From an uncultured Clostridia bacterium (GTDB lineage: Bacteria; Bacillota; Clostridia; TANB77; RGIG9151), in assembly GCA_934500865.1 (NCBI GenBank), contig CAKSUD010000002.1, positions 1 to 54,819 of the forward strand: 54,819 nucleotides of DNA, written 5' to 3'. Position 1 is the stretch's first letter; each line of letters opens with the position of its first letter. The position numbers were made by a program, and so were the translations under genes. Shown here in pieces: positions 7,749 through 35,751 of this stretch. The notes under the pieces were generated by a model. The model had not been told where the DNA came from, searched no databases, and saw only the letters and a list, made by a program, of their open reading frames with translations.

Positions 7749-8747
7749 ATGTTAAATGCTGCAATAATTGGTTTTGGAGGAATTGCAAAGGGCGCACACC
7801 TTCCGGGCTACAAAACACTTGAAGAAAAGGGAAAGGTAAAGCTTGTTGCTGCTTTCGATATTCGTGAAGAAGCTTTTACTCAGGGCACGCAGATTAATCT
7901 TGCATCATCAGATGCATCTGATAACGAGGGTATACATTTTTATACTGATTTAGAAGAAATGTTAAGTAAGGAGAAAATTGATCTTGTTGACATCTGCGTT
8001 CCTACATATCTTCATAAGCAATATGCTGTTGATATGCTAAATAGAGGTTATCTTGTTTTAAGCGAAAAGCCTATGGCACTCTCATCTGCTGACTGCAAGG
8101 AAATGGTAGCAGCATCTAACGGCAGACTAATGATTGGTCAATGCCTTCGTTTTTCTTCTGAATATATTTATGCTAAAAAGTTGGTGGAAGAGGGTACATA
8201 CGGAAAGCCTACCTCTGCAACTTTTAGAAGACTAAGTGAATCACCTACATGGGGGTGGGATAATTGGTTTATGGATTATAACCGTTCAGGCGGTGTAATC
8301 TTTGATTTGCATATACATGACCTTGATATAGCACGCTTTATTTTTGGTGAACCTAAAAAGGTATCTTGTATTGCAGGAGGTCATCACATTGTAGAAGATG
8401 CTTTTGCACACTCGACTCTTTATTACGATGGTTTTACCGTTTTTGCTGAGGGCAGATGGGATCAAATTAAAATGCCGTTCGCAGCAGATTTTCGTATATC
8501 TTTTGAAAAAGCAAACATTGTATGTTCGGGCGGTCAGGTTACAGTTTATCAATATGATGGCGAAGAGTTTACAGTACCGCTTAACAGTGAAAGTATGTAT
8601 ATGAAGGAAATTGAATATATAACCGATATATTTGTAAATGGAGGAGAAAATACACAAAATCCCCCTGAAAGTGCGGCTGAAAGCATCCGTCTTGCTGAAA
8701 CGCTTAAAGAAAGTGCCAAGAATGACGGCGAAGTACTAAAATTTTAA
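7749..8747 (+). CDS. Gfo/Idh/MocA family oxidoreductase
   Basis: RBS GGAGG precedes the start. It has an N-terminal Rossmann motif AIIGFGGIAKGAHLPGY and the family motif VLSEKPMA. Confidence 0.88.
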   Translation: MLNAAIIGFGGIAKGAHLPGYKTLEEKGKVKLVAAFDIREEAFTQGTQINLASSDASDNEGIHFYTDLEEMLSKEKIDLVDICVPTYLHKQYAVDMLNRGYLVLSEKPMALSSADCKEMVAASNGRLMIGQCLRFSSEYIYAKKLVEEGTYGKPTSATFRRLSESPTWGWDNWFMDYNRSGGVIFDLHIHDLDIARFIFGEPKKVSCIAGGHHIVEDAFAHSTLYYDGFTVFAEGRWDQIKMPFAADFRISFEKANIVCSGGQVTVYQYDGEEFTVPLNSESMYMKEIEYITDIFVNGGENTQNPPESAAESIRLAETLKESAKNDGEVLKF

Positions 8748-8763
8748 TCAAGAGGTGCAAAAA

Positions 8764-10110
8764 GTGAAAAACATATCTATTGATTTTACTAAAGATTGCG
8801 GTAAATTAAAGCCTATGCATGCCGTTAATAATGGACCTATTTATAAGTTCTCTGCTGACCAAAGAATTACAAATATGGATGCGTGGAAAGAAGCGGGCAT
8901 ACCTTATGCCAGAACTCACGATTCCGCCTTTTGCAGTACATACGGCGGACCTCATTGTGTTGACGTAAATCTTATTTTTACAAATTTTGATGCAGACCCT
9001 TATGATGCTGCAAATTACGATTTTGCTTGTACGGATGAGTATTTTAAGGTTATTAATTATTCGGGCACAAAGATATTTTATAGATTAGGTGCCAGTATTG
9101 AGCACTGGGTTAAAAAGTATAATACATTGCCACCAAAAGATTTTACCAAATGGGCAGTTATATGTGAGCATATAATTAAGCACTATACTGAGGGTTGGGC
9201 AGACGGCTTTAAGTATGATATTGAATACTGGGAAATCTGGAACGAGCCTGACCTTGACCCTGATGATGCTACTAATAAGCGAACTTGGGGCGGTACAAAG
9301 GCACAGTTTTTTGATTTTTATGCAACTGCCGCAAAGCATCTTAAAGAGTGCTTTCCGCATCTTAAAATAGGCGGTCCTGCGCTCTGCTGTGACTTGGATT
9401 GGGCAAGACATTTCCTTAAAGAAATGAAAAAGCGTGGCGCTGCTGTTGACTTCTTCTCTTGGCACCGCTATGCTTATGAGCCTGTATTTATTGCTGAAAC
9501 AGCACAGACAATTCGTAACATTTTAGACCAAGAAGGTTTTGAGAATACAGAGAGTATAAACAACGAGTGGAACTATGTAAAGGGATGGTCGGGTGATGAG
9601 TGGTTATATTCACTCCGCAGTGAAAAGAACTTAAAGGGTTCTTCCTTTATTCTTGGTACAATGTGCGCTTGCTCTTATGCTCCTATTGATATGCTTATGT
9701 ATTATGATGCCCGTCCTTGTGCTATGAATGGTATGTTCGCTACGGATTTTGTCTGTGATTGTTTAAAAGGATATTATCCGTTTAAAATGTTTAATGAGCT
9801 TTATAAATTGGATAATGCAGTAGCGGTAAAAAATGATACTAATTTGTTATCTGCCGCCGCTGTTAGCGAAGATAAAGCTGCTATTGTATTCACACATTTC
9901 TGTGATAACGATGAAACACCTACCGAAAAAGTTAAACTTAATATGCAAGGTTTTGGCGGTAAAAATGGTGTTAAAGTAAGTTGTTATTTGCTCGGCTGGG
10001 ATAAAGATTTAGAACTTGTTAAGGAAGAAATATTATCGGGCGATAATTTTGCAACAGTTCTTGAAAGCGAACTCTATAGCAGTTATCTTGTGGTGCTTGA
10101 AAAGATTTAA
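8764..10110 (+). CDS. Clan GH-A TIM-barrel glycoside hydrolase, GH39-like
   Basis: YWEIWNEPDLD matches the acid/base region and SINNEWNY is a candidate nucleophile region. The GTG at 8764 lies 8 nt after AGAGG. The ORF track starts at GTG 8755, which abuts the RBS. Confidence 0.65.
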   Translation: MKNISIDFTKDCGKLKPMHAVNNGPIYKFSADQRITNMDAWKEAGIPYARTHDSAFCSTYGGPHCVDVNLIFTNFDADPYDAANYDFACTDEYFKVINYSGTKIFYRLGASIEHWVKKYNTLPPKDFTKWAVICEHIIKHYTEGWADGFKYDIEYWEIWNEPDLDPDDATNKRTWGGTKAQFFDFYATAAKHLKECFPHLKIGGPALCCDLDWARHFLKEMKKRGAAVDFFSWHRYAYEPVFIAETAQTIRNILDQEGFENTESINNEWNYVKGWSGDEWLYSLRSEKNLKGSSFILGTMCACSYAPIDMLMYYDARPCAMNGMFATDFVCDCLKGYYPFKMFNELYKLDNAVAVKNDTNLLSAAAVSEDKAAIVFTHFCDNDETPTEKVKLNMQGFGGKNGVKVSCYLLGWDKDLELVKEEILSGDNFATVLESELYSSYLVVLEKI

Positions 10111-10119
10111 GGTGATATT

Positions 10120-11136
10120 ATGTTAAAGGTTGCAGTTATTGGTTGCGGAAGTATATCCTGTATGCATTTAGAACCGGCGGTAGCTTTGGAAGAAGCAGAG
10201 CTTGTTGCGGTTTGTGATATAAAGCCTGATAGGGCAGAGCATGCTGCTCAAAAATATAACGCTAAGCCGTATACAGATTATATGGGAATGTTCGAAAAAG
10301 AACAACTTGATGCGGTGCATATTTGTCTTCCTCATTATTTACATACAAAGGTTGCTTGTGACGCCTTTAAAAAGAGGATAAATGTACTTTCCGAAAAGCC
10401 AATGAGCATAAAGTACGAGGATGCCATAGAAGCGGTAGAATTAGCAGAAAAATGCGGCGTTAAGTATGGAGTGATTTTTCAGTGCCGGTATAACACACCT
10501 TCAATGCTTGTAAAACAGCGAATTGAGGACGGTAAACTCGGCAAAGTAAAATGTGGAAGAACAACCCTTACATGGTATCGCTCCGATAATTACTATGACC
10601 ATTCCGATTGGAAAGGTACATGGGAAAAGGAGGGTGGCGGCGTAATAATCGACCAAGCCATACACTCTATCGATCTTGCTAACTGGATGATAGACAGTAT
10701 ACCTATAGAAATTCAGGCATCGCTTCATAATCGCAACCACGAAAATATGGTAGTTGAGGATACGGGTGAAGGAATTATAAAGTATGAAAACGGAGTTCTT
10801 TTGTCCTTTTATGCTATGAATAATTATTTTGTTGACGAACCTATTGAAATAAGACTTGTTTGTGAAAATGGTAAGGCTATTTTCTCCTATGATAGAGCCG
10901 AAATCAGTTATAATGACGGCACATTTGAGGCGGTAAACAATATGCCGCAAAAAATGGTTTCGTATACGGGCGGTAAGGATTATTGGGGCACACAACACGC
11001 TGTTCAAATCAGACAGTTCTACCGTTCTGCATTAGGTCTTGAAGAACTTGAAATTTCAGGCAAAGAGGCTCTTAAAATTCAAAAAATCATTTGTGAAATT
11101 TATAAAAATGGCATAAAATATCTTAATAATAAATAA
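10120..11136 (+). CDS. Gfo/Idh/MocA family oxidoreductase (second copy)
   Basis: It has the Rossmann motif VAVIGCGSIS and the motif VLSEKPMSI. It is a paralogue of the 7749 gene. Confidence 0.88.
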   Translation: MLKVAVIGCGSISCMHLEPAVALEEAELVAVCDIKPDRAEHAAQKYNAKPYTDYMGMFEKEQLDAVHICLPHYLHTKVACDAFKKRINVLSEKPMSIKYEDAIEAVELAEKCGVKYGVIFQCRYNTPSMLVKQRIEDGKLGKVKCGRTTLTWYRSDNYYDHSDWKGTWEKEGGGVIIDQAIHSIDLANWMIDSIPIEIQASLHNRNHENMVVEDTGEGIIKYENGVLLSFYAMNNYFVDEPIEIRLVCENGKAIFSYDRAEISYNDGTFEAVNNMPQKMVSYTGGKDYWGTQHAVQIRQFYRSALGLEELEISGKEALKIQKIICEIYKNGIKYLNNK

Positions 11137-13281: not shown

Positions 13282-16086
13282 TTGCATAACAGAATTATGA
13301 ATAAAAGAATTTGTGCTTTGATTTGTGTAGTTGCTATCATTTTCTCGGCTTTATCCTGCGGATTAGTTGTAGTTGCTGATGATAAAAAAGAAAATATAAT
13401 AACAGTAGAGCAATACAATAAAAATGGTGTCAAATATACTTATCGCAACATATCGGATAATGGTTTGAAAATATCAAAGGGAGAAATTATCAGCGGTAAA
13501 TTCAATGTAGATAAAGCAGGCAACTATTATTTAAAAATTTACTATAAACAGGAAAATTCTGTTTATGGGATAACTAATGTGATAATAAGCCTTGATGGTA
13601 ACAAGATCTCAGAAAAGTATTTTTCATTGAAGCATATATGGCGTTATGCAGATGAGTATTTCGAGGATGCACAAAAAAATCAGATAGCACCAAAGCAAGA
13701 GCTTTATACCGATAAGGTATATGAGTTTATTTCTGATTCTGTTACTGATAACGCAGTAAAGTTTGAACTTTCTTCCGGTCCTCATGTCATAAGTGTTACA
13801 GCACTTGAGGAAGAATTTGTTATTTGCGGTATGGAACTTATCGAAATAACAAAAGCACCTACTTATGATCAATATTATAAATTATACGAAAGCAAAGGTG
13901 CTAAAAGGGTCGGCAAAGATGCTTCGTTTTATATTGAGGCAGAGGAAAAGGCTGTTAAATCTTCAAAGAGTATAGTAGTAGCTAATGACAGAAGCTCGGT
14001 GTCAGTAACACCGTATGATCCTGTTCTTGTTCGCTATAATGTAATAGGTGGTGATAGTTGGAACAGCATAGGTGACTGGATTGAGTGGACTGTAAAAGTA
14101 AAAGAAAGCGGCTTTTACGGAATTATGCTTCATGCAAATCAAAGTACAAAAATCAATGATAATTCATACCGGTGCCTTACAATAAACGGTAAAGTTCCCT
14201 TTAAAGAGGCAGAGCTTATAGAGTTCGTTTATGATAGAGGATGGAACAATATAGTTCTTGGAAATAAGAACGGAACTTACAACTTTTATTTTGAAAAGGG
14301 AAGGGAATATAAGTTAAGGCTTACCGCTTGTGCCGGTAAAACCAAGGAGCTTGTTGAAAGGGTATCGGAGCTTGTTACAGAGCTTAACAGGGACTATCTT
14401 GAAATACTTATGATTACAGGCTCATCTCCTGACATTTACCGTGATTATAAGTTTAAAAAAGTAATTCCGGATACACTCGAGAGCCTTGATAATATATGTA
14501 AAGAGTTGAAAAAGATAGAAGAGGAATGGTATAATTATTCCGAGGGCGGAGCCAGTCTTGCGGATATTCAGCAAATGTACGAGTTGCTTGAAGATATCGA
14601 AGAAGATCCGGATACATTAGCCTCAAGAATGAAACTTCTTACAAGCTATATTTCTTCTTTGCAGACATGGGTTTCAAACAGACAGGAACAACCGCTCAAG
14701 CTTGATTATATTTATATCTATTCCTTAGATGAAAAAATTGGCAATTCACAGGGCAACCTTTGGAAGATACTTTGGCATCATATACGTCAGTTTATCTCAT
14801 CTTTTACCACCGATTATTCGGCAATAGGTAACACCGAAAACACATTGGATAAAAAGCCAATAACCGTTTGGCTTGGTGCAGATGCAGCTATGATTTCTGC
14901 TACCACAGGCGGAACGGGCGGTCGTGACCAAGCACAGATAGTAACCCGTCTTACAACGAATGATTTTGTATCAACAAAGGGTATTCCTACTAAAGTTGAA
15001 CTTGTAAATGCAGGTACATTGCTTACAGCCGTACTTGCCGGTGTAGGTCCCGATGTAGCACTTGGTCTCAACCAAGCAACCCCTGTAAACTATGCACTTA
15101 GAAATTCGATTGTAGATTTAAGCAAATTAGAAGGTGTTGATGAAGTTTTAGAGCAATTTGACAAATCGGCATATGAGCCTTTTAAGTTGAACGGCGGCTT
15201 ATATGCTCTTCCGCAAAATCAGTCTTGGAATATGCTTTTTTACCGTAAGGATATTATAAAAAATCTTGGAATTACTACCGATGACCTTACTACGTGGGAT
15301 TCAATACTTAAAGATGTATTACCAATTTTGCAAATAAATTATCTTGAATTCGGTATACCGAATGAAATGGGTATGTATTTGTCATTTCTGTATCAGCGTG
15401 GCGGTCAGCTTTATTCTGATGACCATATGACAACCCTTATGAATTCACCCGAAGGTATATCGGCTTTTACAGATTATACAAATATGTTCCTTGAAAGCGG
15501 ACTGCCGGTAGCATATACCTTTGCTGACCGTTTTAGAAACGGTAGTATGCCTATCGGCGTTGCAGGTTATACAACATTTAACCAATTAGCAGTATATGCA
15601 CCCGAAATTGAAGGACTTTGGGCTATGCTTCCAATGCCGGGTACAATGCAGGAGGACGGTACTATAAACAATGTAACTACCACTTCTACCGAGGGTTGCG
15701 GAATCTTTAAAACAGATAACCTACAATCCTCTTGGGAGTTCTTAAAATGGTGGGTATCAGAAGAAACACAGCTTACCTTCTCACAGGAGCTTGAAACCTT
15801 GCTTGGTGCAGCAGGTCGAAATCCTACTGCAAATAAGCTTGCAAGAGAAAAACTGGGTTGGTCAGAAGAATTTAGAACAGCACTTATTAAGCAGTCTGAA
15901 AATCTTGTGGGTATACCTGAAATTGCCGGTGGATATTATACACCGAGATATTTTAGCTTTGCCTTTACAGATGTTGTTTACGGCGGAAAAAATGTTAACG
16001 AGGTTATAACACAGACTAAGAAGGAAATTGATGCAGAAATTGCAACAAAGACCGAAGAATTATTAGGTAAGGAGAAGAAAAAATAA
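13282..16086 (+). CDS. Giant extracellular solute-binding protein (N-terminal CBM-like region plus helical region, fused to a family-1 SBP domain)
   Basis: It has a signal/anchor segment ICALICVVAIIFSALSCGLVVVA. The N-terminal ~520 aa contain beta-sandwich-like segments. The C-terminal ~400 aa are typical of a sugar SBP (WLGADAA..., LYALPQNQSWNMLFYRKD). Its stop overlaps the start of the next permease gene (TAATG). ATG 13297 is an alternative start. Confidence 0.8.
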   Translation: MHNRIMNKRICALICVVAIIFSALSCGLVVVADDKKENIITVEQYNKNGVKYTYRNISDNGLKISKGEIISGKFNVDKAGNYYLKIYYKQENSVYGITNVIISLDGNKISEKYFSLKHIWRYADEYFEDAQKNQIAPKQELYTDKVYEFISDSVTDNAVKFELSSGPHVISVTALEEEFVICGMELIEITKAPTYDQYYKLYESKGAKRVGKDASFYIEAEEKAVKSSKSIVVANDRSSVSVTPYDPVLVRYNVIGGDSWNSIGDWIEWTVKVKESGFYGIMLHANQSTKINDNSYRCLTINGKVPFKEAELIEFVYDRGWNNIVLGNKNGTYNFYFEKGREYKLRLTACAGKTKELVERVSELVTELNRDYLEILMITGSSPDIYRDYKFKKVIPDTLESLDNICKELKKIEEEWYNYSEGGASLADIQQMYELLEDIEEDPDTLASRMKLLTSYISSLQTWVSNRQEQPLKLDYIYIYSLDEKIGNSQGNLWKILWHHIRQFISSFTTDYSAIGNTENTLDKKPITVWLGADAAMISATTGGTGGRDQAQIVTRLTTNDFVSTKGIPTKVELVNAGTLLTAVLAGVGPDVALGLNQATPVNYALRNSIVDLSKLEGVDEVLEQFDKSAYEPFKLNGGLYALPQNQSWNMLFYRKDIIKNLGITTDDLTTWDSILKDVLPILQINYLEFGIPNEMGMYLSFLYQRGGQLYSDDHMTTLMNSPEGISAFTDYTNMFLESGLPVAYTFADRFRNGSMPIGVAGYTTFNQLAVYAPEIEGLWAMLPMPGTMQEDGTINNVTTTSTEGCGIFKTDNLQSSWEFLKWWVSEETQLTFSQELETLLGAAGRNPTANKLAREKLGWSEEFRTALIKQSENLVGIPEIAGGYYTPRYFSFAFTDVVYGGKNVNEVITQTKKEIDAEIATKTEELLGKEKKK

Positions 16087-16982
16087 TGAAGCTTTCTTTT
16101 AAGAAAAATCGTGATGGAAGTTTTTCGTATGTAGCCTTAATGCTGCCTTATTTAATAATATTTTTCACATTTACCGTTTTGCCTGTTCTTATTTCAATGT
16201 TTTTAAGCTTTACAGATTTTAATGTAATGGAACTACCGGTTTTTACTGGACTTAAAAATTACCAGCGTCTGTTTATGGACGACCCGCTTTTTAAAACAGC
16301 ACTTACTAACACGCTTTTATTAGCTATTATAATAGGCCCTGGCGGTTACATACTTTCTTTCGGCTTTGCTTGGATTTTAAATGAATTTAATCCTAAACTT
16401 AGAAGTCTTTTGACGCTATTCTTGTATGCGCCTTCGATTAGCGGCGGTGCATATATGGTGTGGGCAATTATTTACAGTACTGACCGTTATGGTTGGCTTA
16501 ACAGTATTTTAATGAGCCTTGATATTATTTATGAGCCTATTGCTTGGACTACCGATACCAAATATATGTTCCCGGCAGCAGTAATATCTATTTTATGGAT
16601 GAGCCTCGGTACAAGTTTTTTGTCCTTTATTGCAGGTTTTCAGACTATTGACTCAAGGCTTTATGAGGCGGCAGCGGTTGACGGTATCAGAAACCGTTGG
16701 CAAGAGTTATGGTATATAACTCTACCTACAATGAAACCGCAACTTATGTTCGGTGCAGTTATGAGTATTACAGGCTCCTTCGGTGTTGGTGGTGAAATTT
16801 CAAGATTGTTCGGAAATCCCACAACAAACTATAAATTGTACACATTAGTTATGCAACTTGGTGACTATGGAACGAGCCGTTTTGAGATGGGTTACGCCTC
16901 TGCTATTGCTGTTGTACTGTTCTTCCTTATGATTGGTGCAAACGGACTTGTAAGCAAGATGCTTACAAAGGTTGGACAATAG
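16086..16982 (+). CDS. Carbohydrate ABC transporter permease (MalF-like)
   Basis: It has six TM segments and the EAA-type loop YEAAAVDGIRNRWQELWYITLP. Confidence 0.9.
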   Translation: MKLSFKKNRDGSFSYVALMLPYLIIFFTFTVLPVLISMFLSFTDFNVMELPVFTGLKNYQRLFMDDPLFKTALTNTLLLAIIIGPGGYILSFGFAWILNEFNPKLRSLLTLFLYAPSISGGAYMVWAIIYSTDRYGWLNSILMSLDIIYEPIAWTTDTKYMFPAAVISILWMSLGTSFLSFIAGFQTIDSRLYEAAAVDGIRNRWQELWYITLPTMKPQLMFGAVMSITGSFGVGGEISRLFGNPTTNYKLYTLVMQLGDYGTSRFEMGYASAIAVVLFFLMIGANGLVSKMLTKVGQ

Positions 16983-17013
16983 GAAATTTTAGAAAGGAGA
17001 AAAAGTTGTAAAT

Positions 17014-17883: not shown

Positions 17884-17884
17884 G

Positions 17885-25590: not shown

Positions 25591-25600
25591 GGAGGCAAAT

Positions 25601-29238: not shown

Positions 29239-32200
29239 ATGATGAAGTTATTTAAAAAAAATACTAATGCAATAATAAGTGTAATATTAGCTTTGGCTGT
29301 ATTTGTTTCTTCAACTGTCGGTGTTTTAGTTGTTACCGGAATACTTGATAAAAGTTTTTTAATTGATGTTTTAAAACCTTTTTCCGATAAAAATGATACT
29401 CATGATGATGTGCCGGATGACGAGCCCGATTATCCCGATATTCCTGATTATAATGAACCCGACAGTCCTTGGATACCCGAGGATGAGGCACCGTCTGTAA
29501 ATCCAGGCTATACTACAACCTCTGAAATAGGTGAGGTTTTCCACGACCAAGGTGGAATTTATATGTCACCCATTCAGCCTAAAAATACTGAACGTGCTAC
29601 AATGCGTTTGCGTGTAGAGCGTAACAATGTAACCTGGGCAAAGATTAATATAAGTGATGACTATGGAAAATCATGGATATCCTATCCTCTGAAATATAAT
29701 GCCATTGAGAAAAATGGGAATTTTGAGGATTGGGCAATTATGATACCTAAGCAAGCAGATCCCTATTATTACTATTTTTCGATTGGTAATGACGGCGAAG
29801 AAACAACACAATATTATGGTATTTACGGTATGACTACCGATAAAATTACAAGTTATAGCGATTGCTTCTTTGTACGTCCTGATTCAGACGTTCCTGAGTG
29901 GTCTTACGGTAAATATTGGTATGGTATAAACACTAATGCGTTTTATAATGCGGACCCTATGAATGATCCATCTGGCCAATATATCGATATGGCGTTAGGT
30001 CAGCAAATGAACAGCAATCACTACCGTGCAATGTTCGGCGGAGATTTGCAAGGCGTTCTGGAAAAACTGGATTATATTAAAAGTTTAGGCGTTGAAGGTG
30101 TATATCTTAATCCTTTAATGCCTTCATGGGATGCAGCCGGTTACGGTTGGCTTGAAACATATAGCATAGCTTCTCGCAACGGTAATGAGGAGGCACTTGC
30201 AAATCTTTGTAAAGCTATACATGACAGTGATATGCGTATAATGCTTGACAATGTTGTAGCGCTTTGGCCGGCTAACAGTGTTTGGGCAAATGACCCGAAT
30301 TACAATATTTATCCTTTTGAAGGCTCATTGGCTTCTAAAACAAGTAGATATTTTGATATGTTCTTCTATAATATGTGGCCCGGTGATTATTTAAAACGTT
30401 TTGAGTCTATAGCTCCCGATTATAGCGGAACAAATGCTAAAAAGGCTATTTATAGCGAAAAGGGCTCACTTATTCCAAGGTATAACTCTAATCCTTTTAA
30501 TGTTGATGCTATAAGATATGACTCGTCTGTGTATATTTGGGGCAGCGATACACCTTCGGAACAGATTGTCAAGGAAATGCAGACAGCAGCTAAAAACGCT
30601 AATCCAAATCACTTATTTATAGGTGAAAATGATAAATTCAGATATTACGACTGGGATACTACTTGGAATCTTCATTATGCTGATGCTCAAAGAGATATTT
30701 TCACTTTCAAAAGTACATTTTCGCAATACAAGAGAAATGCAATTAAGTATATGCAATCTATAAATAGAGCATCGGCTCTTTCAACATATAACTATATAGA
30801 TATGATTGACCGTGACAGAATGCGTACTACTGTAAAAACGCAGTGGTTGCTTAATGCAGGTACAATTATTCAGATGACATATTTAGGCTCTCCTGCACTT
30901 CGTTTTGGTAACGAAACTGCAAGCGAAAGCACTATGTCACACAGACTTAATGCATTTAACTGGGACGAAAGCACCTGGAATTATGAAAACTATAATATGG
31001 TTAAGGCACTCGGTCAGTTAAGAAACGAATATGATTGCCTTAAAACAGGTGTTATTAAGTGGGGCGAAATTAATGATGGTGAACAATTTATGTCCTTTGC
31101 ACGCTTCGATAACAAAAATACTGTAATAACAGCAATAAATCGCACCGAAGACACTGTTGAGCATACTATGGAAGTCAGACAGTTCGGCGTCAAAGACGGG
31201 GCAGTTCTTACCGATTATTTGACTGGCAAAAACTATACTGTTAAAAATGGTAAAGTTTCAGTAATTCTTATGCCTGGTGGTACGGTATTTGTAAACGATG
31301 GCAAAACAGCTGATTATCGTTGTAAGTATGAAGTTTATGACATTGATGTTAAGAATGCAAATATAATCACAACCTCACCGAACACTTTTGTTGTGACAGC
31401 TAATAAGGGTTCGTTAGATGGTAAAAATGATAAGGCAATGTTTGCTACCATCCCCTTATTTGGAAATTTTGGTTTTGAAGCTAATATTACTACCAATGAC
31501 AGTTGCGGTGCCTTGGTTGTAAGAGCGTCAAAAGATTCGAATGCTTTGGCATACAGTATAGTAATAGACAACGGAAAACTTACCGTTTATGCAAGAACAG
31601 AGAAAGGCAAGAAGCCAAAGACACTTAAATCGTTAAATTTCAAGGATGGCAGTAAGATAGAAATAGTAAGAAATAATTCGAACAAATTTGCACTTTACCT
31701 TGACGGTGAAATGGTTTCTGGAACTACCGCAAATATTGCTATGGGCAATAAAGTATATGTGGGTTTTGCAGCTTTGGACGGCACGATAAGTACTAATAAT
31801 ATTTCTATCAATAATGCTACATCAAAGTATTGTTCTGACTTTAATTCTACTGTTTTGCCATCAACACTTACTCTTTCTGGTAATGGAGTTTTAGAAAATG
31901 GCGAACTTGTTTTAACCTCTAAAAAAACATTGTTCTCTAAGAGTGAGGATGCCATTTGCTATGCTGAAACTAAAGAAGGCGATTGGACAGCAAAAACGAC
32001 ATTTTTAGCAGAAATTAACAAGGATTATTCCATTGCAGGATTAATTGCAAAATCAAGTGATAACAACAAAGTATTTGGCGGCCGCACTTTAATTGATGGT
32101 AAACAGAAGATAGTATTATCCAGAATTGTTAACGATAAGTTGGCTGTATATGCATCTGTCGACGATACAAAGTCTAATTCTGCACTCACAATTCAACTTC

Positions 32201-33426
32201 AAAGAACGGGCAACTACTTTACACTTATTTATCGTTATGAAAATTCCGATTGGAAGCAACTTGACGGACGTATTTTTACAAGTATGAGTGATCCGAATGT
32301 CGGCATATATACAAGTGGCGATAATGTTGTGGCTAAATTTGATTCGTTTACACTTGGTAATATGCTCGACGGCGGAACTTCTGTAAATACTCCCCATTCA
32401 ATTATTCCTTGGGCGACTAAAACTCAAGGTCAATATGATAATGTTTCTTGGCAATTCCCGTCATGGAAAGTTACAGGTAATGTTGATAACTGGGATTATG
32501 TATCCGGTGGTATTGAACAGAGCTCAAAAACTGTTGACGAGTATCTTTACGATATAAGAAGTGAACATACTGATTTTAGGGCAGAATGTACAATTCAGTT
32601 CAAGAGTAAGACCGGATATGTTGGAATGTTGCTTCGTAAAGTAAATACTGCGACAGATATGAATAACGGTTATCTTGTAAAATTAAATCACGGCGGTAAA
32701 CTTCAACTTCTTAGGGGTAGCACAGTTTTAGCAGAAACAAAAGTTAAAATACCTAAAATGGGTCTTAGATTAGTTGCCGAATGCTCAGGTAATACCATTG
32801 CCGTTTATCATGGGACTAATTTAGAGTTAGCGTTTACAGTACAGGATAGTACCTATATGAAGGGCTACTTTGGATTTATGACTTCAAGGGAAAACGCAAT
32901 AATCGGCAACTTTGATATATCTCTTAATGAATATAAATCATGGACAGCAGTAGCACCTAATTATCTGGGTGACAACAATATTTGGAGATTTTCCGCTGAT
33001 GCTATAAATCTCAATATCGGCAAATCTTATGCGGTGGCTTCATTTAAAGGTTATGCCTATACTAATGTTGATGTGTCTGTTCAAATAACCGCCACACAGG
33101 ATGAAACAGGTTACTCAGGTTTAACCTTTGGACTATCTGAAGGCATTTTACCGAAAGATAAAGGTGTTTCAGTTGCTATCAATGGCACTAATAGTTTAGT
33201 TGTTTTCAAGAATGGTGAAAAGGTCGCTTTTGCCGATATTACAATTAGTGATAAGGTATTGCTTAAAGTGACCGTACGGGATGGCAAATATACCGTATAT
33301 CTTGATGGCAATAAAACTCTTGAGTGGACAGACTGCGAATTTAGCGGCGGTGCCATCTCTCTTTCAGGATATAATACCAAGACTGAATTTAAAAACTTCA
33401 TCGTAAAAGATATGGTAAACGGATAA
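29239..33426 (+). CDS. Membrane-anchored divergent GH13-like (alpha-amylase superfamily) enzyme fused to several LamG/DUF1080-like modules (1395 aa)
   Basis: It has an N-terminal TM anchor and an acidic Pro-rich linker. An amylase N-domain-like segment reads FHDQGGIYMSPIQP. The core reads GGDLQGVLEKLDYIKSLGVEGVYLNPL, RIMLDNVVAL, VDAIRYDSS, LFIGEN and MTYLGSPALRFGNE. C-terminal modules end in motifs such as KGYFGFMTSRENAIIGNFDI. Confidence 0.75.
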   Translation: MMKLFKKNTNAIISVILALAVFVSSTVGVLVVTGILDKSFLIDVLKPFSDKNDTHDDVPDDEPDYPDIPDYNEPDSPWIPEDEAPSVNPGYTTTSEIGEVFHDQGGIYMSPIQPKNTERATMRLRVERNNVTWAKINISDDYGKSWISYPLKYNAIEKNGNFEDWAIMIPKQADPYYYYFSIGNDGEETTQYYGIYGMTTDKITSYSDCFFVRPDSDVPEWSYGKYWYGINTNAFYNADPMNDPSGQYIDMALGQQMNSNHYRAMFGGDLQGVLEKLDYIKSLGVEGVYLNPLMPSWDAAGYGWLETYSIASRNGNEEALANLCKAIHDSDMRIMLDNVVALWPANSVWANDPNYNIYPFEGSLASKTSRYFDMFFYNMWPGDYLKRFESIAPDYSGTNAKKAIYSEKGSLIPRYNSNPFNVDAIRYDSSVYIWGSDTPSEQIVKEMQTAAKNANPNHLFIGENDKFRYYDWDTTWNLHYADAQRDIFTFKSTFSQYKRNAIKYMQSINRASALSTYNYIDMIDRDRMRTTVKTQWLLNAGTIIQMTYLGSPALRFGNETASESTMSHRLNAFNWDESTWNYENYNMVKALGQLRNEYDCLKTGVIKWGEINDGEQFMSFARFDNKNTVITAINRTEDTVEHTMEVRQFGVKDGAVLTDYLTGKNYTVKNGKVSVILMPGGTVFVNDGKTADYRCKYEVYDIDVKNANIITTSPNTFVVTANKGSLDGKNDKAMFATIPLFGNFGFEANITTNDSCGALVVRASKDSNALAYSIVIDNGKLTVYARTEKGKKPKTLKSLNFKDGSKIEIVRNNSNKFALYLDGEMVSGTTANIAMGNKVYVGFAALDGTISTNNISINNATSKYCSDFNSTVLPSTLTLSGNGVLENGELVLTSKKTLFSKSEDAICYAETKEGDWTAKTTFLAEINKDYSIAGLIAKSSDNNKVFGGRTLIDGKQKIVLSRIVNDKLAVYASVDDTKSNSALTIQLQRTGNYFTLIYRYENSDWKQLDGRIFTSMSDPNVGIYTSGDNVVAKFDSFTLGNMLDGGTSVNTPHSIIPWATKTQGQYDNVSWQFPSWKVTGNVDNWDYVSGGIEQSSKTVDEYLYDIRSEHTDFRAECTIQFKSKTGYVGMLLRKVNTATDMNNGYLVKLNHGGKLQLLRGSTVLAETKVKIPKMGLRLVAECSGNTIAVYHGTNLELAFTVQDSTYMKGYFGFMTSRENAIIGNFDISLNEYKSWTAVAPNYLGDNNIWRFSADAINLNIGKSYAVASFKGYAYTNVDVSVQITATQDETGYSGLTFGLSEGILPKDKGVSVAINGTNSLVVFKNGEKVAFADITISDKVLLKVTVRDGKYTVYLDGNKTLEWTDCEFSGGAISLSGYNTKTEFKNFIVKDMVNG

Positions 33427-33528: not shown

Positions 33529-34899
33529 ATGAAGATTTTTGAAAAAATTCTTTGCATTGCAATGGCTTTAGCAATGTGCTGTACACTATTTACAGGCTGT
33601 TCAGATAAAAAAGAAAATAAAGTTGACCTTAACGGTTATGAGTTTACGATAGCTTCTCCATGGCTTGTAAATGATACAGCAGGCGCAACTCTTGCAACCT
33701 ATGAAAGAGCTTTCCAAAAGCGAAGACAAGAGGTTGAACGTGAATTCAACTGTAAAATAACAATAATTAAACCCGAAAATATAATGCAGCAAATACTTGC
33801 AGGTGAAAAAGTTGCTGACTGGATTAACCAAACAACTTACAATGTTATGAATTATGCTGCCAGTGATTATCTTATTCCTTATGAGGATATCAAGGGAATA
33901 GATATTAAAAGCGATAAATGGATAAAGTCTTATAGCGATTTATTTACTATGGATGGTAAACATTATGCACTTAATTTCTTAAAGCCTGCTTCTGCCCGTA
34001 ATATTCTTCTTGTTAATAAAACAATGCTTAAAGAAAACGGTGTAGAAGAAGATATTTATCAACTAGTTCGTGATAATAAGTGGACATTTGATAAATTTAG
34101 GGAAATGGCGCAAAAATGTACCAATGTGCAAAAAGGTACATATGGTGTTATGTTCTACGATGTTTATGAGGCATTTGCAAGCTTTATAGCCGCTAACGGA
34201 GCTAAAATTGCCGATATTAAAGGTGGTGCCGTTAAAGAATACACTACAAGCAAGGAAGTACTCAACGCACTTAACTTTGTTGATAGCATTTGCAACGAAT
34301 ATAAGGTTGTAAAAATTGATGACAAGCAACGCTCTGGACCTACTTTTGCTACATATACCGTTTCACAGGCACAGATCGCACAGCAGTTCCTTAACAATAA
34401 AATTGCATTCTATATGATGGATATGTGGGTCTCAAATCAACTTATTAAGCCGCTTGAACCTGAAATTGAATATGGTATGGTACCGATACCGATGGGTCCC
34501 GATACTGATAAATATCATTCTTCATCCTTTGGTGCAGATGCTTTCTGTGTAACAAAAAATAATAAAGACCTTGATAAAGCAGTTGTTATTATGAATGCAT
34601 TAGCAGAGCCTGCTGAAGGCTATGAAGGTGACGAGTGGGTAGAGGATGCAGTTATAAACGACTACTTCCAGGAAGGTGATACAGATAGTTTTGAAATGTA
34701 TAAAATCTGTATAGAAAATATGACTTACGATTTTATGCGTACAGAAGGTACAAATGACCTTTATGGTGAGTTTGTAATTAATTGCGGTTTGAATCCTATT
34801 TTCTTCCGTAAGACTTCTGTATCTTCAGCCCTTCAGTCATTTAACGGTGTTCCCACTAACCGTCTGAATGAGCTTTTTGGTTTTGAGAGTAAGAAATAA
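33529..34899 (+). CDS. ABC transporter substrate-binding lipoprotein (family 1 SBP)
   Basis: RBS AAGGAG precedes the start. It has the lipobox LFTGCSD, is 456 aa long and has general sugar-SBP composition. Confidence 0.8.
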   Translation: MKIFEKILCIAMALAMCCTLFTGCSDKKENKVDLNGYEFTIASPWLVNDTAGATLATYERAFQKRRQEVEREFNCKITIIKPENIMQQILAGEKVADWINQTTYNVMNYAASDYLIPYEDIKGIDIKSDKWIKSYSDLFTMDGKHYALNFLKPASARNILLVNKTMLKENGVEEDIYQLVRDNKWTFDKFREMAQKCTNVQKGTYGVMFYDVYEAFASFIAANGAKIADIKGGAVKEYTTSKEVLNALNFVDSICNEYKVVKIDDKQRSGPTFATYTVSQAQIAQQFLNNKIAFYMMDMWVSNQLIKPLEPEIEYGMVPIPMGPDTDKYHSSSFGADAFCVTKNNKDLDKAVVIMNALAEPAEGYEGDEWVEDAVINDYFQEGDTDSFEMYKICIENMTYDFMRTEGTNDLYGEFVINCGLNPIFFRKTSVSSALQSFNGVPTNRLNELFGFESKK

Positions 34900-34920
34900 T
34901 TTTATTTGAGGCGATTTTTT

Positions 34921-35751
34921 ATGAATGTTGGTGTAGTAATTTTACATTGCAGAGAAGGATTAGAGGGGAAATTTAAAGTTTCAGCTGAGCAAGGCTTTAA
35001 GCACTGCCAGTTTATAAGCTGGTCTCCATCCCTTTGGACAGATGACGAGGCTGAAAGGGTTTCTTCGTACAGCAAGAAATACGGCATAGAAATCACTGCT
35101 TTCTGGTGCGGTTGGGAAGGTCCTAATGCATGGAACTTCTATGAAGGTCAGGCAACACTTGGTTTAGTGCCCGAAACTTACCGCCATGCACGTATTAAAA
35201 ATTTGGTAAACGGCTCTGATTTTGCCAAAAAACTCGGCGTTACCGATGTTGTTACACATATGGGATTTTTGCCTGAGAATCCCAACGAGAGGCTTTATAC
35301 CGATGTTGTTTATGCAATTAGATGCATAGCCCGTCATGCTGCTCAGAATGGTCAACGACTTTTGTTTGAAACTGGTCAAGAAACACCTGTTACACTTCTC
35401 AGAACTATTGAAGATGTAGCTACAGGTAATCTCGGTGTAAATCTTGACCCTGCTAACCTTATTCTTTACGGTAAAGCAAATCCCGTTGATGCTTTGGATG
35501 TTTTTGGTAAATATGTTTACGGTTTTCATGCAAAGGATGGCTTTTATCCTACAAACGGAAGAGAGCTTGGACGTGAGGTGCCTGTTGGTGAGGGTAAGGC
35601 AAATTATCCTATGCTTATCAAAAGATTGCACGAATGTGGCTATAATGGCTCTCTTACCATAGAACGTGAAATTTCAGGCGAACAGCAAACCAAGGATATC
35701 CTAAACACAAAGGTATATTTAGAAAAATTATTGGCTGAGATTGAAGCGTAA
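34921..35751 (+). CDS. Sugar phosphate isomerase/epimerase family protein (xylose-isomerase-like TIM barrel)
   Basis: It contains segments typical of the family (VVTHMGF, LLFETGQE, GVNLDPANLILYG, HAKDG...GEGKANYPMLIKRLHECGYNGSLTIERE). The ATG at 34921 lies 9 nt after GAGG. TTG 34906 is an alternative start. Confidence 0.8.
   Translation: MNVGVVILHCREGLEGKFKVSAEQGFKHCQFISWSPSLWTDDEAERVSSYSKKYGIEITAFWCGWEGPNAWNFYEGQATLGLVPETYRHARIKNLVNGSDFAKKLGVTDVVTHMGFLPENPNERLYTDVVYAIRCIARHAAQNGQRLLFETGQETPVTLLRTIEDVATGNLGVNLDPANLILYGKANPVDALDVFGKYVYGFHAKDGFYPTNGRELGREVPVGEGKANYPMLIKRLHECGYNGSLTIEREISGEQQTKDILNTKVYLEKLLAEIEA

What the first reader, a model, noticed from the sequence alone, without database searches (positions are those of the whole stretch)
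7749..35751. Possible oxidative (3-keto-glycoside) cleavage toolkit: two Gfo/Idh/MocA oxidoreductases, a xylose-isomerase-like TIM barrel and many DUF1080-like modules
The locus encodes two Gfo/Idh/MocA oxidoreductases (7749, 10120) and one sugar-phosphate isomerase/epimerase-fold protein (34921). The repeated C-terminal modules of the GH13-like enzymes follow a pattern I associate with DUF1080, the 3-keto-disaccharide hydrolase family. They show W..G..W.yvsGGie at the start, an aromatic/acidic DF pair, a central GY.v.l strand and a terminal GyfGf.t....a..gNf.i. The trio of Gfo/Idh/MocA, xylose-isomerase-like TIM barrel and DUF1080 is the established hallmark of glycoside cleavage by C3 oxidation followed by elimination or hydrolysis. 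Known examples are the Agrobacterium 3-ketoglycoside route, levoglucosan LgdA/LgdB, and the Bacteroides thetaiotaomicron BT2156-BT2160 operon as I recall it. Finding these partners together with hydrolases, and DUF1080-like modules fused to GH13-like cores, would be a new combination.
Basis: inference. Interest (0 to 1): 0.7.

Follow-up and report, generated by a model that had tools for sequence, protein, structure and literature searches.

The report
Starch-type enzymes plus keto-sugar gene cassette
A mobile gut-bacterial sugar-degradation locus couples three amylase-family enzymes, whose extra modules are sugar-binding domains rather than the suspected 3-keto-sugar enzymes, with a conserved oxidoreductase plus TIM-barrel cassette that may cleave or remodel sugars by oxidation.

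Summary
The genes are real.

The modules are not catalytic DUF1080 enzymes. Only one, in GH13c and outside the stated range, passes the PF06439 threshold. The module family matches the non-catalytic CBM66 of B. subtilis levanase end to end (profile E 4.5e-16; Foldseek E 3e-11, TM 0.80). CBM66 itself scores above the PF06439 threshold, so that model cannot separate the two kinds. The canonical DUF1080 signature NSG...E.Q..D is absent from every window protein.

The oxidative idea survives without DUF1080. Gfo2 is 31-33% identical to the P2B11 glucuronide-3-dehydrogenase pair and keeps its active-site residues. The TIM-barrel family is followed directly by a Gfo gene in 44 of 73 Clostridia loci. 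In four further loci the TIM and Gfo genes sit among homologues of the same GH13 genes (in one close relative the Gfo region was not covered), as TIM-Gfo1-Gfo2 in one.

Best reading: CBM66-type binding modules on secreted GH13s, plus a cytoplasmic, DUF1080-independent 3-keto-sugar cassette. Its chemistry (cleavage, epimerisation or monosaccharide catabolism) is unresolved. Interest is moderate.

The parts
7749..8747 (+). Gfo1: Gfo/Idh/MocA oxidoreductase with no signal peptide. It represents the type that usually follows the TIM barrel in other genomes.
   Evidence: PF01408, PF22725 and PF02894. Best PDB hits are RgNanOx 6z3b/6z3c and YjhC at about 5e-19. Homologues of 87% (L042), 52-53% (L087) and 40% (L091) identity lie next to TIM and GH13 genes.
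8755..10110 (+). GH39-like clan GH-A glycosidase, cytoplasmic, lying between the two oxidoreductase genes.
   Evidence: PF01229 60.1 bits. A WNEPD motif is visible in the sequence. It is absent from the related loci L042, L087 and L091.
10120..11136 (+). Gfo2: Gfo/Idh/MocA oxidoreductase of the sugar/glycoside 3-dehydrogenase clade.
   Evidence: Best PDB hit is 8tdi, P2B11 glucuronide-3-dehydrogenase, at 1.3e-38, followed by WlbA 3q2i and DgpA 7xr9. It is 31% identical to P2B11-Oxi1 and 33% to Oxi2. Oxi1 residues N147, W179, R181, Y185, N205 and H209 align with Q, W, R, Y, D and H.
29239..33426 (+). GH13a: secreted or anchored TVAI-like GH13 with an N-terminal Ig-like domain, the catalytic domain, a C domain and four beta-sandwich modules.
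   Evidence: PF00128 68 bits, PF02903 and PF22460. An N-terminal hydrophobic segment is visible. A 45% homologue occurs in L087.
31876..32388 (+). DUF1349-like concanavalin-type module of GH13a (aa 880-1050).
   Evidence: PF07081 33.7 bits against a threshold of 32.4.
32401..32943 (+). Type-1 CBM66-like module of GH13a (aa 1055-1235).
   Evidence: No Pfam hit at E<=1. The family profile A2 matches BsCBM66 4azz at 4.5e-16. The AF2 model has pLDDT 90.5. Best Foldseek hit is 4azz at E 3e-11, TMt 0.80. No NSG...E.Q..D signature.
32944..33423 (+). Type-2 CBM66-like module of GH13a (aa 1236-1395), a divergent tandem copy.
   Evidence: PF06439 18.9 bits, below threshold. hhalign of A4 against A2 gives probability 99.3%, E 1.1e-20.
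33529..34899 (+). Lipoprotein that is probably a solute-binding protein, conserved with the GH13/TIM set.
   Evidence: Lipobox LFTGC. A 54% homologue in L087 is annotated SBP_bac_1/8 there. No Pfam hit in the window copy.
34906..35751 (+). TIM: PF01261 xylose-isomerase-like TIM barrel, cytoplasmic, probable start at 34921.
   Evidence: PF01261 102.5 bits. Matches 3tva at 2e-41. Family profile hits: AtHYD 1.6e-5, YcjR 3.4e-4, AL1/BT1 6-8e-4. AF2 pLDDT 92.3 and Foldseek results. A Gfo gene lies directly downstream in 44 of 73 related loci.
35801..37927 (+). GH78-like six-hairpin glycosidase, cytoplasmic, conserved next to GH13b.
   Evidence: PF17389 62.4 bits. Homologues lie upstream of GH13b in L042, L087, L090 and L092.
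38349..41504 (+). GH13b: TVAI-like GH13 without a signal peptide, carrying DUF1349-like, type-1 and type-2 CBM66-like modules (type-1 at 40596-41033, type-2 at 41034-41501).
   Evidence: PF00128 96.3 bits. The N-terminal part matches TVAI 1izj at 1.6e-56. The modules are in A1 and A4. Homologues of 43-50% lie beside TIM/Gfo genes.
41549..42649 (+). Calcineurin-like metallophosphoesterase, conserved in the locus.
   Evidence: PF00149 44.2 bits. A 51% homologue occurs in L042. L088 carries a metallophosphoesterase-PF01261 fusion.
44617..50502 (+). GH13c: secreted 1961-aa TVAI-like GH13 with many modules. Its type-1 CBM66-like module at 48169-48651 is the only one above the PF06439 threshold; the type-2 module is at 48649-49146.
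   Evidence: PF00128 89.5 bits. PF06439 46.4 bits for the whole protein and 33.9 bits for the module alone.

Best explanation
The window carries a large glycan-utilisation locus of an uncultured human-gut Clostridia bacterium, apparently as cargo of a conjugative element.

Two secreted TVAI-like GH13 enzymes (GH13a, GH13c) and one cytoplasmic one (GH13b) each carry a DUF1349-like module followed by a tandem pair of CBM66-type beta-sandwich modules. I read these modules as non-catalytic carbohydrate-binding or substrate-positioning domains, not 3-keto-glycoside lyase/hydratases (confidence about 0.85).

I infer that oligosaccharides are released outside the cell and imported through the lipoprotein binding proteins and ABC permeases.

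In the cytoplasm, GH13b, the GH78-like, GH39-like and GtaA-like enzymes and a metallophosphoesterase work alongside a conserved keto-sugar cassette of the TIM barrel, Gfo1 and Gfo2.

The most likely mechanism (confidence about 0.4-0.45, inferred) has three steps:
1. Gfo2, possibly with Gfo1, oxidises C3 of an imported glycoside that the hydrolases cannot cleave, using tightly bound NAD.
2. The metal-dependent TIM barrel catalyses alpha,beta-elimination and/or hydration of the 3-keto intermediate.
3. The second oxidoreductase re-reduces the 3-keto sugar.

This would be a DUF1080-independent version of the pathway shown for the P2B11 cluster.

Shown: the domain identities, the CBM66 affinity of the modules, the Gfo2 active-site conservation and the conserved gene neighbourhood.

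Inferred: the cell compartments, the substrate and every catalytic step.
For: Modules:
- Profile A2 matches BsCBM66 at 4.5e-16 over the whole module.
- Best Foldseek hit is 4azz at E 3e-11, TMt 0.80, rmsd 2.4. Canonical DUF1080 structures reach only about 1e-6, and 8tda is not in the top 50.
- BsCBM66 itself scores 41.3 bits on PF06439.
- A canonical DUF1080 query finds 14 DUF1080 chains, including 8tda and 8rr2, but not 4azz.
- The signature NSG...E.Q..D is present in 4 of 4 canonical chains and in none of the 7 window proteins.
- Type-2 modules are homologous to type-1 (99.3%).
- Literature: CBM66 modules are appended to varied CAZymes, and two binding specificities are known (PMC11002231).

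Cassette:
- Gfo2 matches P2B11-Oxi1 and Oxi2 at 1e-38 and 5e-41, with active-site residues conserved.
- The P2B11 system works without DUF1080 (10.1101/2024.03.25.586180).
- A Gfo gene follows the TIM gene directly in 44 of 73 loci, with a divergent AraC regulator in 24.
- L042 reads GH78L-GH13b-GH13c-TIM-Gfo1(87%)-Gfo2(92%).
- L087 reads GH13a-SBP-...-GH78L-GH13b-TIM-...-Gfo1(52%)-GH13c.
- L091 reads GH13b-GH13c-Gfo-TIM-TIM.
- L092 is arranged like the window.
- The TIM profile reaches AtHYD at 1.6e-5, YcjR at 3.4e-4 and AL1/BT1 at 6-8e-4, ahead of ketose 3-epimerases and IolI/IolE. Foldseek gives the same order.
Against: - No biochemical data exist for any of these proteins.
- The TIM barrel has no significant similarity to P2B11 Iso1 or Iso2 (E 0.046 and none). 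Its margin over ketose 3-epimerases is small (Foldseek 4e-13 against about 7e-12).
- In most genomes the TIM-Gfo pair is a stand-alone AraC-regulated operon with no glycosidase or transporter beside it. That fits a small, common substrate such as a monosaccharide as well as a glycoside.
- Gfo1, the usual partner, is only 24-26% identical to the P2B11 oxidoreductases. Its nearest structures are NanOx and YjhC.
- In this window the Gfo genes lie 24 kb from the TIM barrel.
- Carbohydrate binding by the modules is inferred from homology at about 22% identity. The BT2157 residues were tested only through a proxy signature, not by alignment to BT2157 itself.
Confidence: 0.5

Rival explanations
1. 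The TIM barrel and the Gfo enzymes are ordinary cytoplasmic catabolic enzymes. They would act on a released monosaccharide, anhydro-sugar or cyclitol through dehydrogenation followed by isomerisation, epimerisation or dehydration, as in IolG with IolE/IolI, ketose 3-epimerases or the 1,5-anhydrofructose and levoglucosan routes. They would not act on glycosidic bonds.
For: - In most of the 80 related loci the TIM-Gfo pair stands alone with an AraC regulator and no neighbouring glycosidase or transporter.
- NCBIfam's best, sub-threshold hits for Gfo1 and Gfo2 include IolG (102-118 bits against a cutoff of 355).
- Ketose 3-epimerases are almost as close structurally as AtHYD and YcjR.
- The TIM family keeps invariant E155, D181, H208 and E253, which I take to be the generic PF01261 metal site (the assignment is from general knowledge).
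Against: - Gfo2's closest characterised relatives are all pyranoside or nucleotide-sugar C3 dehydrogenases: P2B11-Oxi1, WlbA and DgpA.
- IolI and IolE score only 0.6-0.9 against the TIM profile.
- The cassette is embedded among the same GH13 genes in five loci.
Confidence: 0.3
2. The cassette epimerises sugars within glycosides through 3-keto intermediates, as E. coli YcjQ/YcjR/YcjS do. Unusual glycosides would be converted into glucosides that the GH13 enzymes can then hydrolyse.
For: - YcjR, the 3-keto-D-glucoside 4-epimerase (6wn6), is among the nearest characterised relatives of the TIM barrel (profile 3.4e-4; Foldseek 3.8e-12).
- Two oxidoreductases plus one TIM barrel is the composition such a route needs.
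- From my own knowledge, the E. coli ycj cluster also contains a GH13 enzyme.
Against: The similarity to YcjR is weak and no better than to AtHYD. No YcjQ-type zinc dehydrogenase is present. Some relatives carry two TIM barrels with one Gfo (L091, L007, L021), which looks more like lyase plus hydratase.
Confidence: 0.12
3. One reading: the C-terminal modules fused to the GH13 cores are catalytic DUF1080 3-keto-glycoside lyase/hydratases. Together with the Gfo enzymes and the TIM barrel they would form the full trio.
For: The GH13c module passes the PF06439 threshold (33.9 and 46.4 bits). 13 of 42 family members hit PF06439. GH13b and its modules are cytoplasmic, like the oxidoreductases.
Against: - PF06439 also captures the non-catalytic BsCBM66.
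- The modules are far closer to CBM66 than to any DUF1080 enzyme in both sequence and structure.
- They lack the NSG...E.Q..D signature.
- They have about 154 structured residues, against 229 aligned C-alpha positions between BT2 and AL2.
- An exhaustive search finds only 238 relatives, nearly all in large multimodular proteins, and does not reach the bulk of DUF1080.
Confidence: 0.03

Closest known systems
P2B11 cluster (Iso1-Oxido1-Oxido2-Iso2) from a Collinsella-like Gram-positive gut bacterium; Nasseri et al. preprint 10.1101/2024.03.25.586180
   Same: Both come from Gram-positive gut bacteria and are cytoplasmic. Both have two Gfo/Idh/MocA oxidoreductases plus PF01261 TIM barrel(s) and no DUF1080 enzyme. 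Gfo2 is 31-33% identical to Oxido1 and Oxido2, with Oxido1's active-site residues conserved. Other glycosidase genes lie nearby in both.
   Different: The TIM barrel here belongs to a different PF01261 subfamily (3tva-like; E 0.046 and none against Iso1 and Iso2). Gfo1 is NanOx/YjhC-like rather than Oxido-like. Gfo2 lacks Oxido1's C-terminal extension (338 against 408 aa). Here the genes are split by 24 kb and tied to GH13 enzymes. The substrate is unknown, whereas P2B11 cleaves glucuronides.
Bacteroides thetaiotaomicron BT2156-BT2160 and Alistipes AL1-AL5 (3-keto-glycoside pathway)
   Same: The overall logic of a Gfo/Idh/MocA 3-dehydrogenase, a TIM-barrel lyase and a second oxidoreductase.
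   Different: Those systems are periplasmic and need a stand-alone DUF1080 enzyme (BT2157/AL2) as alpha-lyase and hydratase. No such enzyme is present here. NCBIfam BT_2158 and BT_2159 models score only 48 and 39 bits on Gfo2, against cutoffs of 750 and 650.
CBM66: BsCBM66 of B. subtilis levanase SacC (PDB 4azz, 4b1l, 4b1m) and CsCBM66 of Cohnella xanthanase (PMC11002231)
   Same: Same beta-sandwich fold and the same motif pattern (W..G.W, DF, GY, G.fG...a.F.N). The profile match is E 4.5e-16 and the TM-score 0.80. In both cases the module is appended C-terminally to a glycoside hydrolase.
   Different: Identity is only about 22%. Here the modules come as divergent tandem pairs after a DUF1349-like module and on GH13 enzymes, one of which is cytoplasmic. 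The ligand is unknown and is unlikely to be fructan.
Agrobacterium tumefaciens AtHYD (2-hydroxy-3-keto-glucal hydratase, 8ro4) and E. coli YcjR (3-keto-D-glucoside 4-epimerase, 6wn6)
   Same: They are the nearest characterised relatives of the TIM barrel by profile and by fold. Both act on 3-keto sugars.
   Different: The similarity is weak (E 1.6e-5 and 3.4e-4; 15-16% identity). The true nearest neighbour, 3tva, is uncharacterised.
Thermoactinomyces vulgaris alpha-amylase I (TVAI, neopullulanase 1; 1izj, 1ji1)
   Same: The N-domain, GH13 catalytic domain and C-domain architecture matches GH13b over aa 4-578 (E 1.6e-56).
   Different: The window enzymes add 450-1300 residues of beta-sandwich modules. 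They diverge in the conserved GH13 regions by my reading; for example GH13a appears to lack the region IV histidine.

Membership tests
Pfam PF06439 (DUF1080 / 3keto-disac_hyd domain) | Score at or above the gathering threshold of 26.8 bits, for GH13c module aa 1185-1345 | tested here: met
   33.9 bits for the module alone and 46.4 bits for the whole protein.
Pfam PF06439 (DUF1080 / 3keto-disac_hyd domain) | Score at or above the gathering threshold for the modules inside the reported range (GH13a, ORF 24442, ORF 25601) and for GH13b | tested here: not met
   GH13a type-1 has no hit at E<=1. GH13a type-2 scores 18.9, ORF 24442 19.0, ORF 25601 18.8 and GH13b 14.4-14.7 bits.
Catalytic DUF1080 enzymes (BT2157/BT2, AL2: 3-keto-alpha-glucoside 1,2-lyase / 2-hydroxy-3-keto-glucal hydratase) | Conserved channel residues (BT2 E103, N134, E164, Q166, Y190, K245, Q273, H275). 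Tested by proxy through the signature NSG[IVFLM]...E.Q[ILVM][ILVMF]D found in canonical DUF1080 chains. | tested here: not met
   The signature is present in 3h3l, 3hbk, 3u1x and 4jqt, and absent from all 7 modular window proteins and from BsCBM66. Mapping the signature onto BT2 N134, E164 and Q166 is my inference. The BT2157 sequence itself was not available.
Catalytic DUF1080 enzymes (BT2157/BT2, AL2) | Closer in sequence and fold to solved DUF1080 enzymes than to non-catalytic relatives | tested here: not met
   Profiles A1 and A2 give CBM66 8.5e-6 and 4.5e-16, while 8tda, 8rr2, 9fbe and 3osd give 0.8-0.9 or no hit. Foldseek gives 4azz 3e-11 against 4jqt, 3u1x and 3s5q at about 1e-6, with 8tda outside the top 50. 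Conversely, a canonical DUF1080 query does not find 4azz.
Catalytic DUF1080 enzymes (BT2157/BT2, AL2) | Same cell compartment as the partner 3-dehydrogenase | tested here: inconclusive
   GH13a and GH13c start with charged and then hydrophobic signal-like segments. GH13b, Gfo1, Gfo2 and TIM do not (read). No signal-peptide predictor was available.
CBM66 | End-to-end sequence-profile match to a founding member (BsCBM66) | tested here: met
   A2 against 4azz gives E 4.5e-16 and 61.9 bits, covering profile positions 24-184 of 191 and chain residues 8-166 of 172.
CBM66 | Same fold as BsCBM66 | tested here: met
   The AF2 model has pLDDT 90.5. Foldseek rank 1 is 4azz with TMq 0.74, TMt 0.80 and rmsd 2.4 A.
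CBM66 | Binds carbohydrate without catalysis | not testable with these tools
   Needs affinity gels, ITC and activity assays on isolated modules.
Gfo/Idh/MocA sugar/glycoside 3-dehydrogenases (P2B11-Oxido1, AL3/BT2158, DgpA, WlbA) | Rossmann PF01408 domain plus the C-terminal substrate domain | tested here: met
   Both Gfo1 and Gfo2 have them.
Gfo/Idh/MocA sugar/glycoside 3-dehydrogenases (P2B11-Oxido1, AL3/BT2158, DgpA, WlbA) | Active-site constellation of P2B11-Oxido1 (N147, W179, R181, Y185, N205, H209) | tested here: met
   Gfo2 aligns Q, W, R, Y, D and H at these positions. Q and D are the residues AL3 has at the equivalent sites. Gfo1 was not examined residue by residue and is only 24-26% identical.
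Gfo/Idh/MocA sugar/glycoside 3-dehydrogenases (P2B11-Oxido1, AL3/BT2158, DgpA, WlbA) | Oxidises C3 of a glycoside using tightly bound NAD | not testable with these tools
   Needs an enzyme assay.
3-keto-glycoside lyase/hydratase TIM barrels (AL1/BT1, P2B11 Iso1/Iso2, AtHYD, DgpBC) | PF01261 TIM-barrel fold | tested here: met
   102.5 bits. The AF2 model has pLDDT 92.3 and shows a TIM barrel.
3-keto-glycoside lyase/hydratase TIM barrels (AL1/BT1, P2B11 Iso1/Iso2, AtHYD, DgpBC) | Significant sequence similarity to a characterised member | tested here: inconclusive
   P2B11 Iso1 gives E 0.046 and Iso2 gives none. The family profile gives AtHYD 1.6e-5 and AL1/BT1 (8tcs, 8tcd) 6-8e-4, but ketose 3-epimerases follow at 0.01-0.5. 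Foldseek differences are small.
3-keto-glycoside lyase/hydratase TIM barrels (AL1/BT1, P2B11 Iso1/Iso2, AtHYD, DgpBC) | Metal site and catalytic base equivalent to AL1/BT1 (His, Asp, His plus Glu) | not tested
   E155, D181, H208, E253 and H118 are invariant in the family. No residue-level superposition on 8tcd was possible.
3-keto-glycoside lyase/hydratase TIM barrels (AL1/BT1, P2B11 Iso1/Iso2, AtHYD, DgpBC) | Encoded next to a Gfo/Idh/MocA oxidoreductase | tested here: met
   Adjacent in 44 of 73 related loci and in L042 and L091. In this window the nearest Gfo gene is 24 kb away.
GH13 (TVAI-like neopullulanase type) | PF00128 catalytic domain with an N-terminal Ig-like domain and a C domain | tested here: met
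   PF00128 scores 68, 96 and 89.5 bits, with PF02903 and PF22460 also present. TVAI matches at 1.6e-56. The catalytic residues were read by eye only.

The most novel reading that the evidence does not exclude
The 3tva-like TIM barrel plus Gfo1-type oxidoreductase pair has at least 8000 90%-identity clusters in gut and rumen metagenomes, all annotated only as 'sugar phosphate isomerase/epimerase'. It may be an abundant, uncharacterised, DUF1080-independent oxidative glycoside-cleaving system of Gram-positive gut bacteria. In this GH13 locus it would be recruited, together with a P2B11-like Gfo2 and a phosphoesterase, to break linkages or modified residues that the amylase-family hydrolases cannot cleave. 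The whole toolkit would spread on a conjugative element.
Probability: 0.3. Interest if true: 0.7.

Novelty: new variant of a known kind. Interest (0 to 1): 0.45.

Why it matters
Non-hydrolytic cleavage of glycosides through 3-keto intermediates was recognised as a widespread gut-bacterial strategy only in 2021-2024. So far there is a single Gram-positive example, P2B11.

If the cassette found here works that way, a very abundant and unannotated two-gene operon of gut Clostridia would gain a function. It would also show oxidative and hydrolytic routes wired into one polysaccharide locus.

There is a practical lesson for annotation as well. A PF06439 ('3-keto-disaccharide hydrolase') hit on a multimodular CAZyme does not indicate 3-keto chemistry, because the model also captures the non-catalytic CBM66.

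Tried and rejected
- The search for homologous proteins with the 3-module alignment A1 returned nothing, not even the window proteins. I used the exhaustive representative search instead.
- I looked in NCBIfam for BT_2156 and BT_2157 family models on the TIM barrel and the modules. The test was uninformative, because neither BsCBM66 nor the canonical DUF1080 control 3h3l hit any such model.
- I could not obtain the BT2157 or AL2 sequence. The preprint's supplement holds only the P2B11 sequences as text. The active-site test therefore rests on a proxy signature taken from four other DUF1080 PDB chains.
I repeated it with database homologues.
- The modules of ORFs 24442 and 25601 were considered as further DUF1080 or CBM66 copies and rejected (hhalign probability 1.4%).
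- Literature searches for DUF5696, DUF4964, DUF5127 and Art22, and for a prior description of this kind of locus, gave nothing useful.
- From base composition I first suspected rRNA in window 1-5246. It is in fact a TraG gene split by a group II intron.

Full report
**Anatomy**

All genes of interest are on the + strand. In order they are:
- an AraC regulator (5840)
- a CE4 deacetylase (6843)
- Gfo1 (7749)
- a GH39-like protein (8755)
- Gfo2 (10120)
- a GtaA/DUF5127/DUF4964 six-hairpin protein (11326)
- a 934-aa binding protein and two permeases (13282-17883)
- an NHL/Yip1 membrane protein (17885)
- a DUF5696 lipoprotein (20013)
- two more permeases
- two secreted repeat proteins (24442, 25601)
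- GH13a (29239)
- a lipoprotein binding protein (33529)
- the PF01261 TIM barrel (34906, probable start 34921)
- a GH78-like protein (35801)
- GH13b (38349)
- a metallophosphoesterase (41549)
- a secreted 522-aa protein (42955)
- GH13c (44617)

Identical genes occur on human-gut metagenome contigs, including Hadza samples.

**Checking the observation**

The two Gfo/Idh/MocA proteins and the TIM barrel are as described.

The Pfam evidence for DUF1080 is thin. Only the GH13c module, which lies outside the reported coordinates, exceeds the PF06439 threshold, at 33.9 bits alone and 46.4 bits for the whole protein. The homologous GH13a module gets no Pfam hit at E<=1. All other hits score 14-21 bits.

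**What the modules are**

I aligned the three type-1 modules (A1) and searched all 1.84 billion representative proteins. Only 238 proteins matched at E<=1e-3. Nearly all are 500-3400-aa multimodular proteins, so the search does not reach the bulk of DUF1080.

A 42-member alignment (A2) matches the non-catalytic CBM66 of B. subtilis levanase end to end at E 4.5e-16. The solved DUF1080 enzymes 8tda, 8rr2, 9fbe and 3osd are not found at E<=1 (with A1 they score 0.8-0.9).

An AlphaFold model of GH13a aa 1055-1235 has pLDDT 90.5. Its best Foldseek match is 4azz at E 3e-11, TMt 0.80 and rmsd 2.4 A. That is four to five orders of magnitude better than DUF1080-type structures.

Three controls support this reading:
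- The BsCBM66 sequence itself passes PF06439 at 41.3 bits. A PF06439 hit therefore cannot separate lectin-type modules from lyase/hydratases.
- A canonical DUF1080 query finds 14 DUF1080 chains, including 8tda, but not 4azz.
- The signature NSG...E.Q..D occurs in all four canonical chains I could read and in none of the seven modular window proteins.

The second C-terminal module of each GH13 (A4) is a divergent copy of the first (hhalign 99.3%, E 1.1e-20). The module before the pair is DUF1349-like. The modules of ORFs 24442 and 25601 are unrelated.

The literature shows CBM66 modules on GH32, GH43, GH9 and pectate lyases, with two known ligands (PMC11002231; PMC12678895).

**The oxidoreductases**

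Gfo2's best solved relatives are P2B11 glucuronide-3-dehydrogenase (1.3e-38), WlbA and DgpA. All three oxidise C3 of a pyranose.

Using the P2B11 sequences printed in the preprint's supplement, Gfo2 is 31% identical to Oxido1 and 33% to Oxido2. The Oxido1 pocket residues N147, W179, R181, Y185, N205 and H209 align with Q, W, R, Y, D and H.

Gfo1 is more distant. Its best relatives are NanOx and YjhC at about 5e-19, and it is 24-26% identical to the P2B11 enzymes.

**The TIM barrel**

The best match is the uncharacterised 3tva (2e-41). There is no significant similarity to P2B11 Iso1 or Iso2.

A family profile reaches AtHYD, the 2-hydroxy-3-keto-glucal hydratase, at 1.6e-5. It reaches YcjR, the 3-keto-glucoside 4-epimerase, at 3.4e-4, and AL1/BT1 at 6-8e-4. 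All of these rank ahead of ketose 3-epimerases, IolI and IolE.

Foldseek on a model with pLDDT 92 gives the same order, with small margins. The family is very large, with at least 8000 clusters, all named only 'sugar phosphate isomerase/epimerase'.

**Comparative genomics**

A scan of species-representative genomes with the TIM protein returned at least 592 relatives. The 80 loci kept are almost all gut and rumen Clostridia MAGs.

- In 44 of the 73 loci with room downstream, a Gfo1-type gene follows within about 45-160 nt on the same strand.
- An AraC regulator lies divergently upstream in 24 loci.
- Little else is conserved.
- Other partners are a second TIM barrel, an SDR or DUF4432.

Homologues of the window's GH13 genes co-occur with the cassette:
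- L042: GH78L, GH13b (46%), GH13c-like, TIM (58%), Gfo1 (87%), Gfo2 (92%), then an esterase, a GH29, the phosphoesterase and FucI.
- L087: GH13a (45%), binding protein (54%), GH78L, GH13b (47%), TIM (57%), Gfo1 (52%), GH13c (44%).
- L091: GH13b, GH13c-like, Gfo, TIM, TIM.
- L092: arranged like the window.
- More distant GH13 relatives have a phosphoesterase-TIM fusion or an FAD oxidoreductase nearby.

The link between the cassette and these GH13 enzymes is therefore conserved, even though the genes are split in the window.

**How it most likely works**

- Shown: the domain identities, the module affinity to CBM66, the Gfo2 active site and the synteny.
- Inferred from N-terminal sequences: GH13a, GH13c, the repeat proteins and the lipoproteins are extracellular. 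GH13b, GH39L, GtaA, GH78L, the phosphoesterase, TIM, Gfo1 and Gfo2 are cytoplasmic.
- Inferred mechanism: the secreted GH13s, targeted by their CBM66-type modules, release oligosaccharides that are then imported. In the cytoplasm the hydrolases act alongside the cassette. Gfo2, possibly with Gfo1, oxidises C3 of a recalcitrant glycoside. The TIM barrel eliminates and/or hydrates. The other oxidoreductase re-reduces.

This is the P2B11 logic, and P2B11 needs no DUF1080.

**Rivals**

The first rival is ordinary catabolism of a released monosaccharide or cyclitol. It is favoured by the stand-alone AraC-regulated context of most TIM-Gfo pairs. The second rival is Ycj-like epimerisation of glycosides.

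**Novelty and value**

The modules are new members of a known kind, CBM66-like. Their placement on GH13 enzymes, as tandem pairs and once in a cytoplasmic enzyme, is unusual.

The cassette is a new variant of the known 3-keto-sugar gene clusters. It combines a different TIM subfamily, a NanOx-like partner and a P2B11-like second oxidoreductase. It is tied to amylase-family enzymes, and its substrate is unknown. I found no prior description. Interest is moderate.

**Limits**

- There is no biochemistry for any of these proteins.
- The BT2157 residues were tested by proxy only.
- Compartments were read by eye.
- The TIM barrel's affinity to 3-keto-sugar enzymes is weak.
- The GH13 substrate is unknown.

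Noticed in passing
window 10-5246: A Toprim/DUF3991 primase-like ORF is followed by a TraG/VirD4-type coupling protein gene split into two ORFs (468-1811 and 4476-5246). The split is caused by a group II intron (Rfam RF02004 at 1884-2087, RF00029 at 4424-4509) with its reverse-transcriptase ORF at 2506-4380. The same upstream genes occur on metagenome contigs L001 and L003.
   Followed up: partly
window 51311-53754: A sigma-70 region-4-like protein and a large serine recombinase lie just downstream of GH13c. Together with the TraG gene upstream, this suggests that the 45-kb CAZyme locus (5840-50502) is cargo of an integrative conjugative element.
   Followed up: partly
L088 17464-18912 (logan SRR32406668): A single 482-aa protein fuses a calcineurin-like metallophosphoesterase to a PF01261 TIM barrel, next to GH13 genes with CBM66-like modules. 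This fusion hints that the window's phosphoesterase (41549-42649) works with the TIM-barrel chemistry. L087 has a Y_phosphatase3 gene in the equivalent neighbourhood.
   Followed up: no
L042 12890-19484 (Clostridia MAG RGIG3182, JAFSIV010000004.1): In this relative the TIM-Gfo1-Gfo2 cassette is followed by a GDSL esterase, an unknown 413-aa protein, a GH29 alpha-L-fucosidase, the phosphoesterase and L-fucose isomerase. The target glycan may therefore be more complex than a plain alpha-glucan. Gfo1 and Gfo2 are 87% and 92% identical to the window's copies, while TIM and GH13b are only 58% and 46% identical, which suggests separate histories.
   Followed up: partly
window 13282-24372: This block holds a 934-aa solute-binding protein with a long N-terminal extension, two permease pairs, an NHL-repeat/TPR/Yip1 membrane protein and a DUF5696 lipoprotein. 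None of these is found beside the GH13/TIM/Gfo set in L042, L087 or L091, so the window looks like a fusion of two gene modules.
   Followed up: partly
window 24442-28990 and 42955-44523: Three secreted proteins are built from two further repeat families that have no Pfam assignment. One family has the pattern GGP.I.LG...GYL.L.FT..DGID.R...VWVNG, and the other NNILNTTPVI.LA.TD. ORF 42955 ends in a dockerin-like GDLNADLEINILD segment. A homologue of ORF 42955 (33%) is conserved in L087.
   Followed up: partly
window 29239-33426 (GH13a): By eye, GH13a appears to lack the histidine of GH13 conserved region IV (YIDMIDRDR, against THD in GH13b and SHD in GH13c). All three enzymes have unusual region I sequences. 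Their activity on classical alpha-glucans should not be assumed.
   Followed up: no
L007-L086 (80 genome loci): The 3tva-like TIM barrel with a Gfo1-type oxidoreductase and a divergent AraC regulator forms a very common stand-alone operon in gut and rumen Clostridia. The TIM family has at least 8000 90%-identity clusters and no functional annotation.
   Followed up: partly
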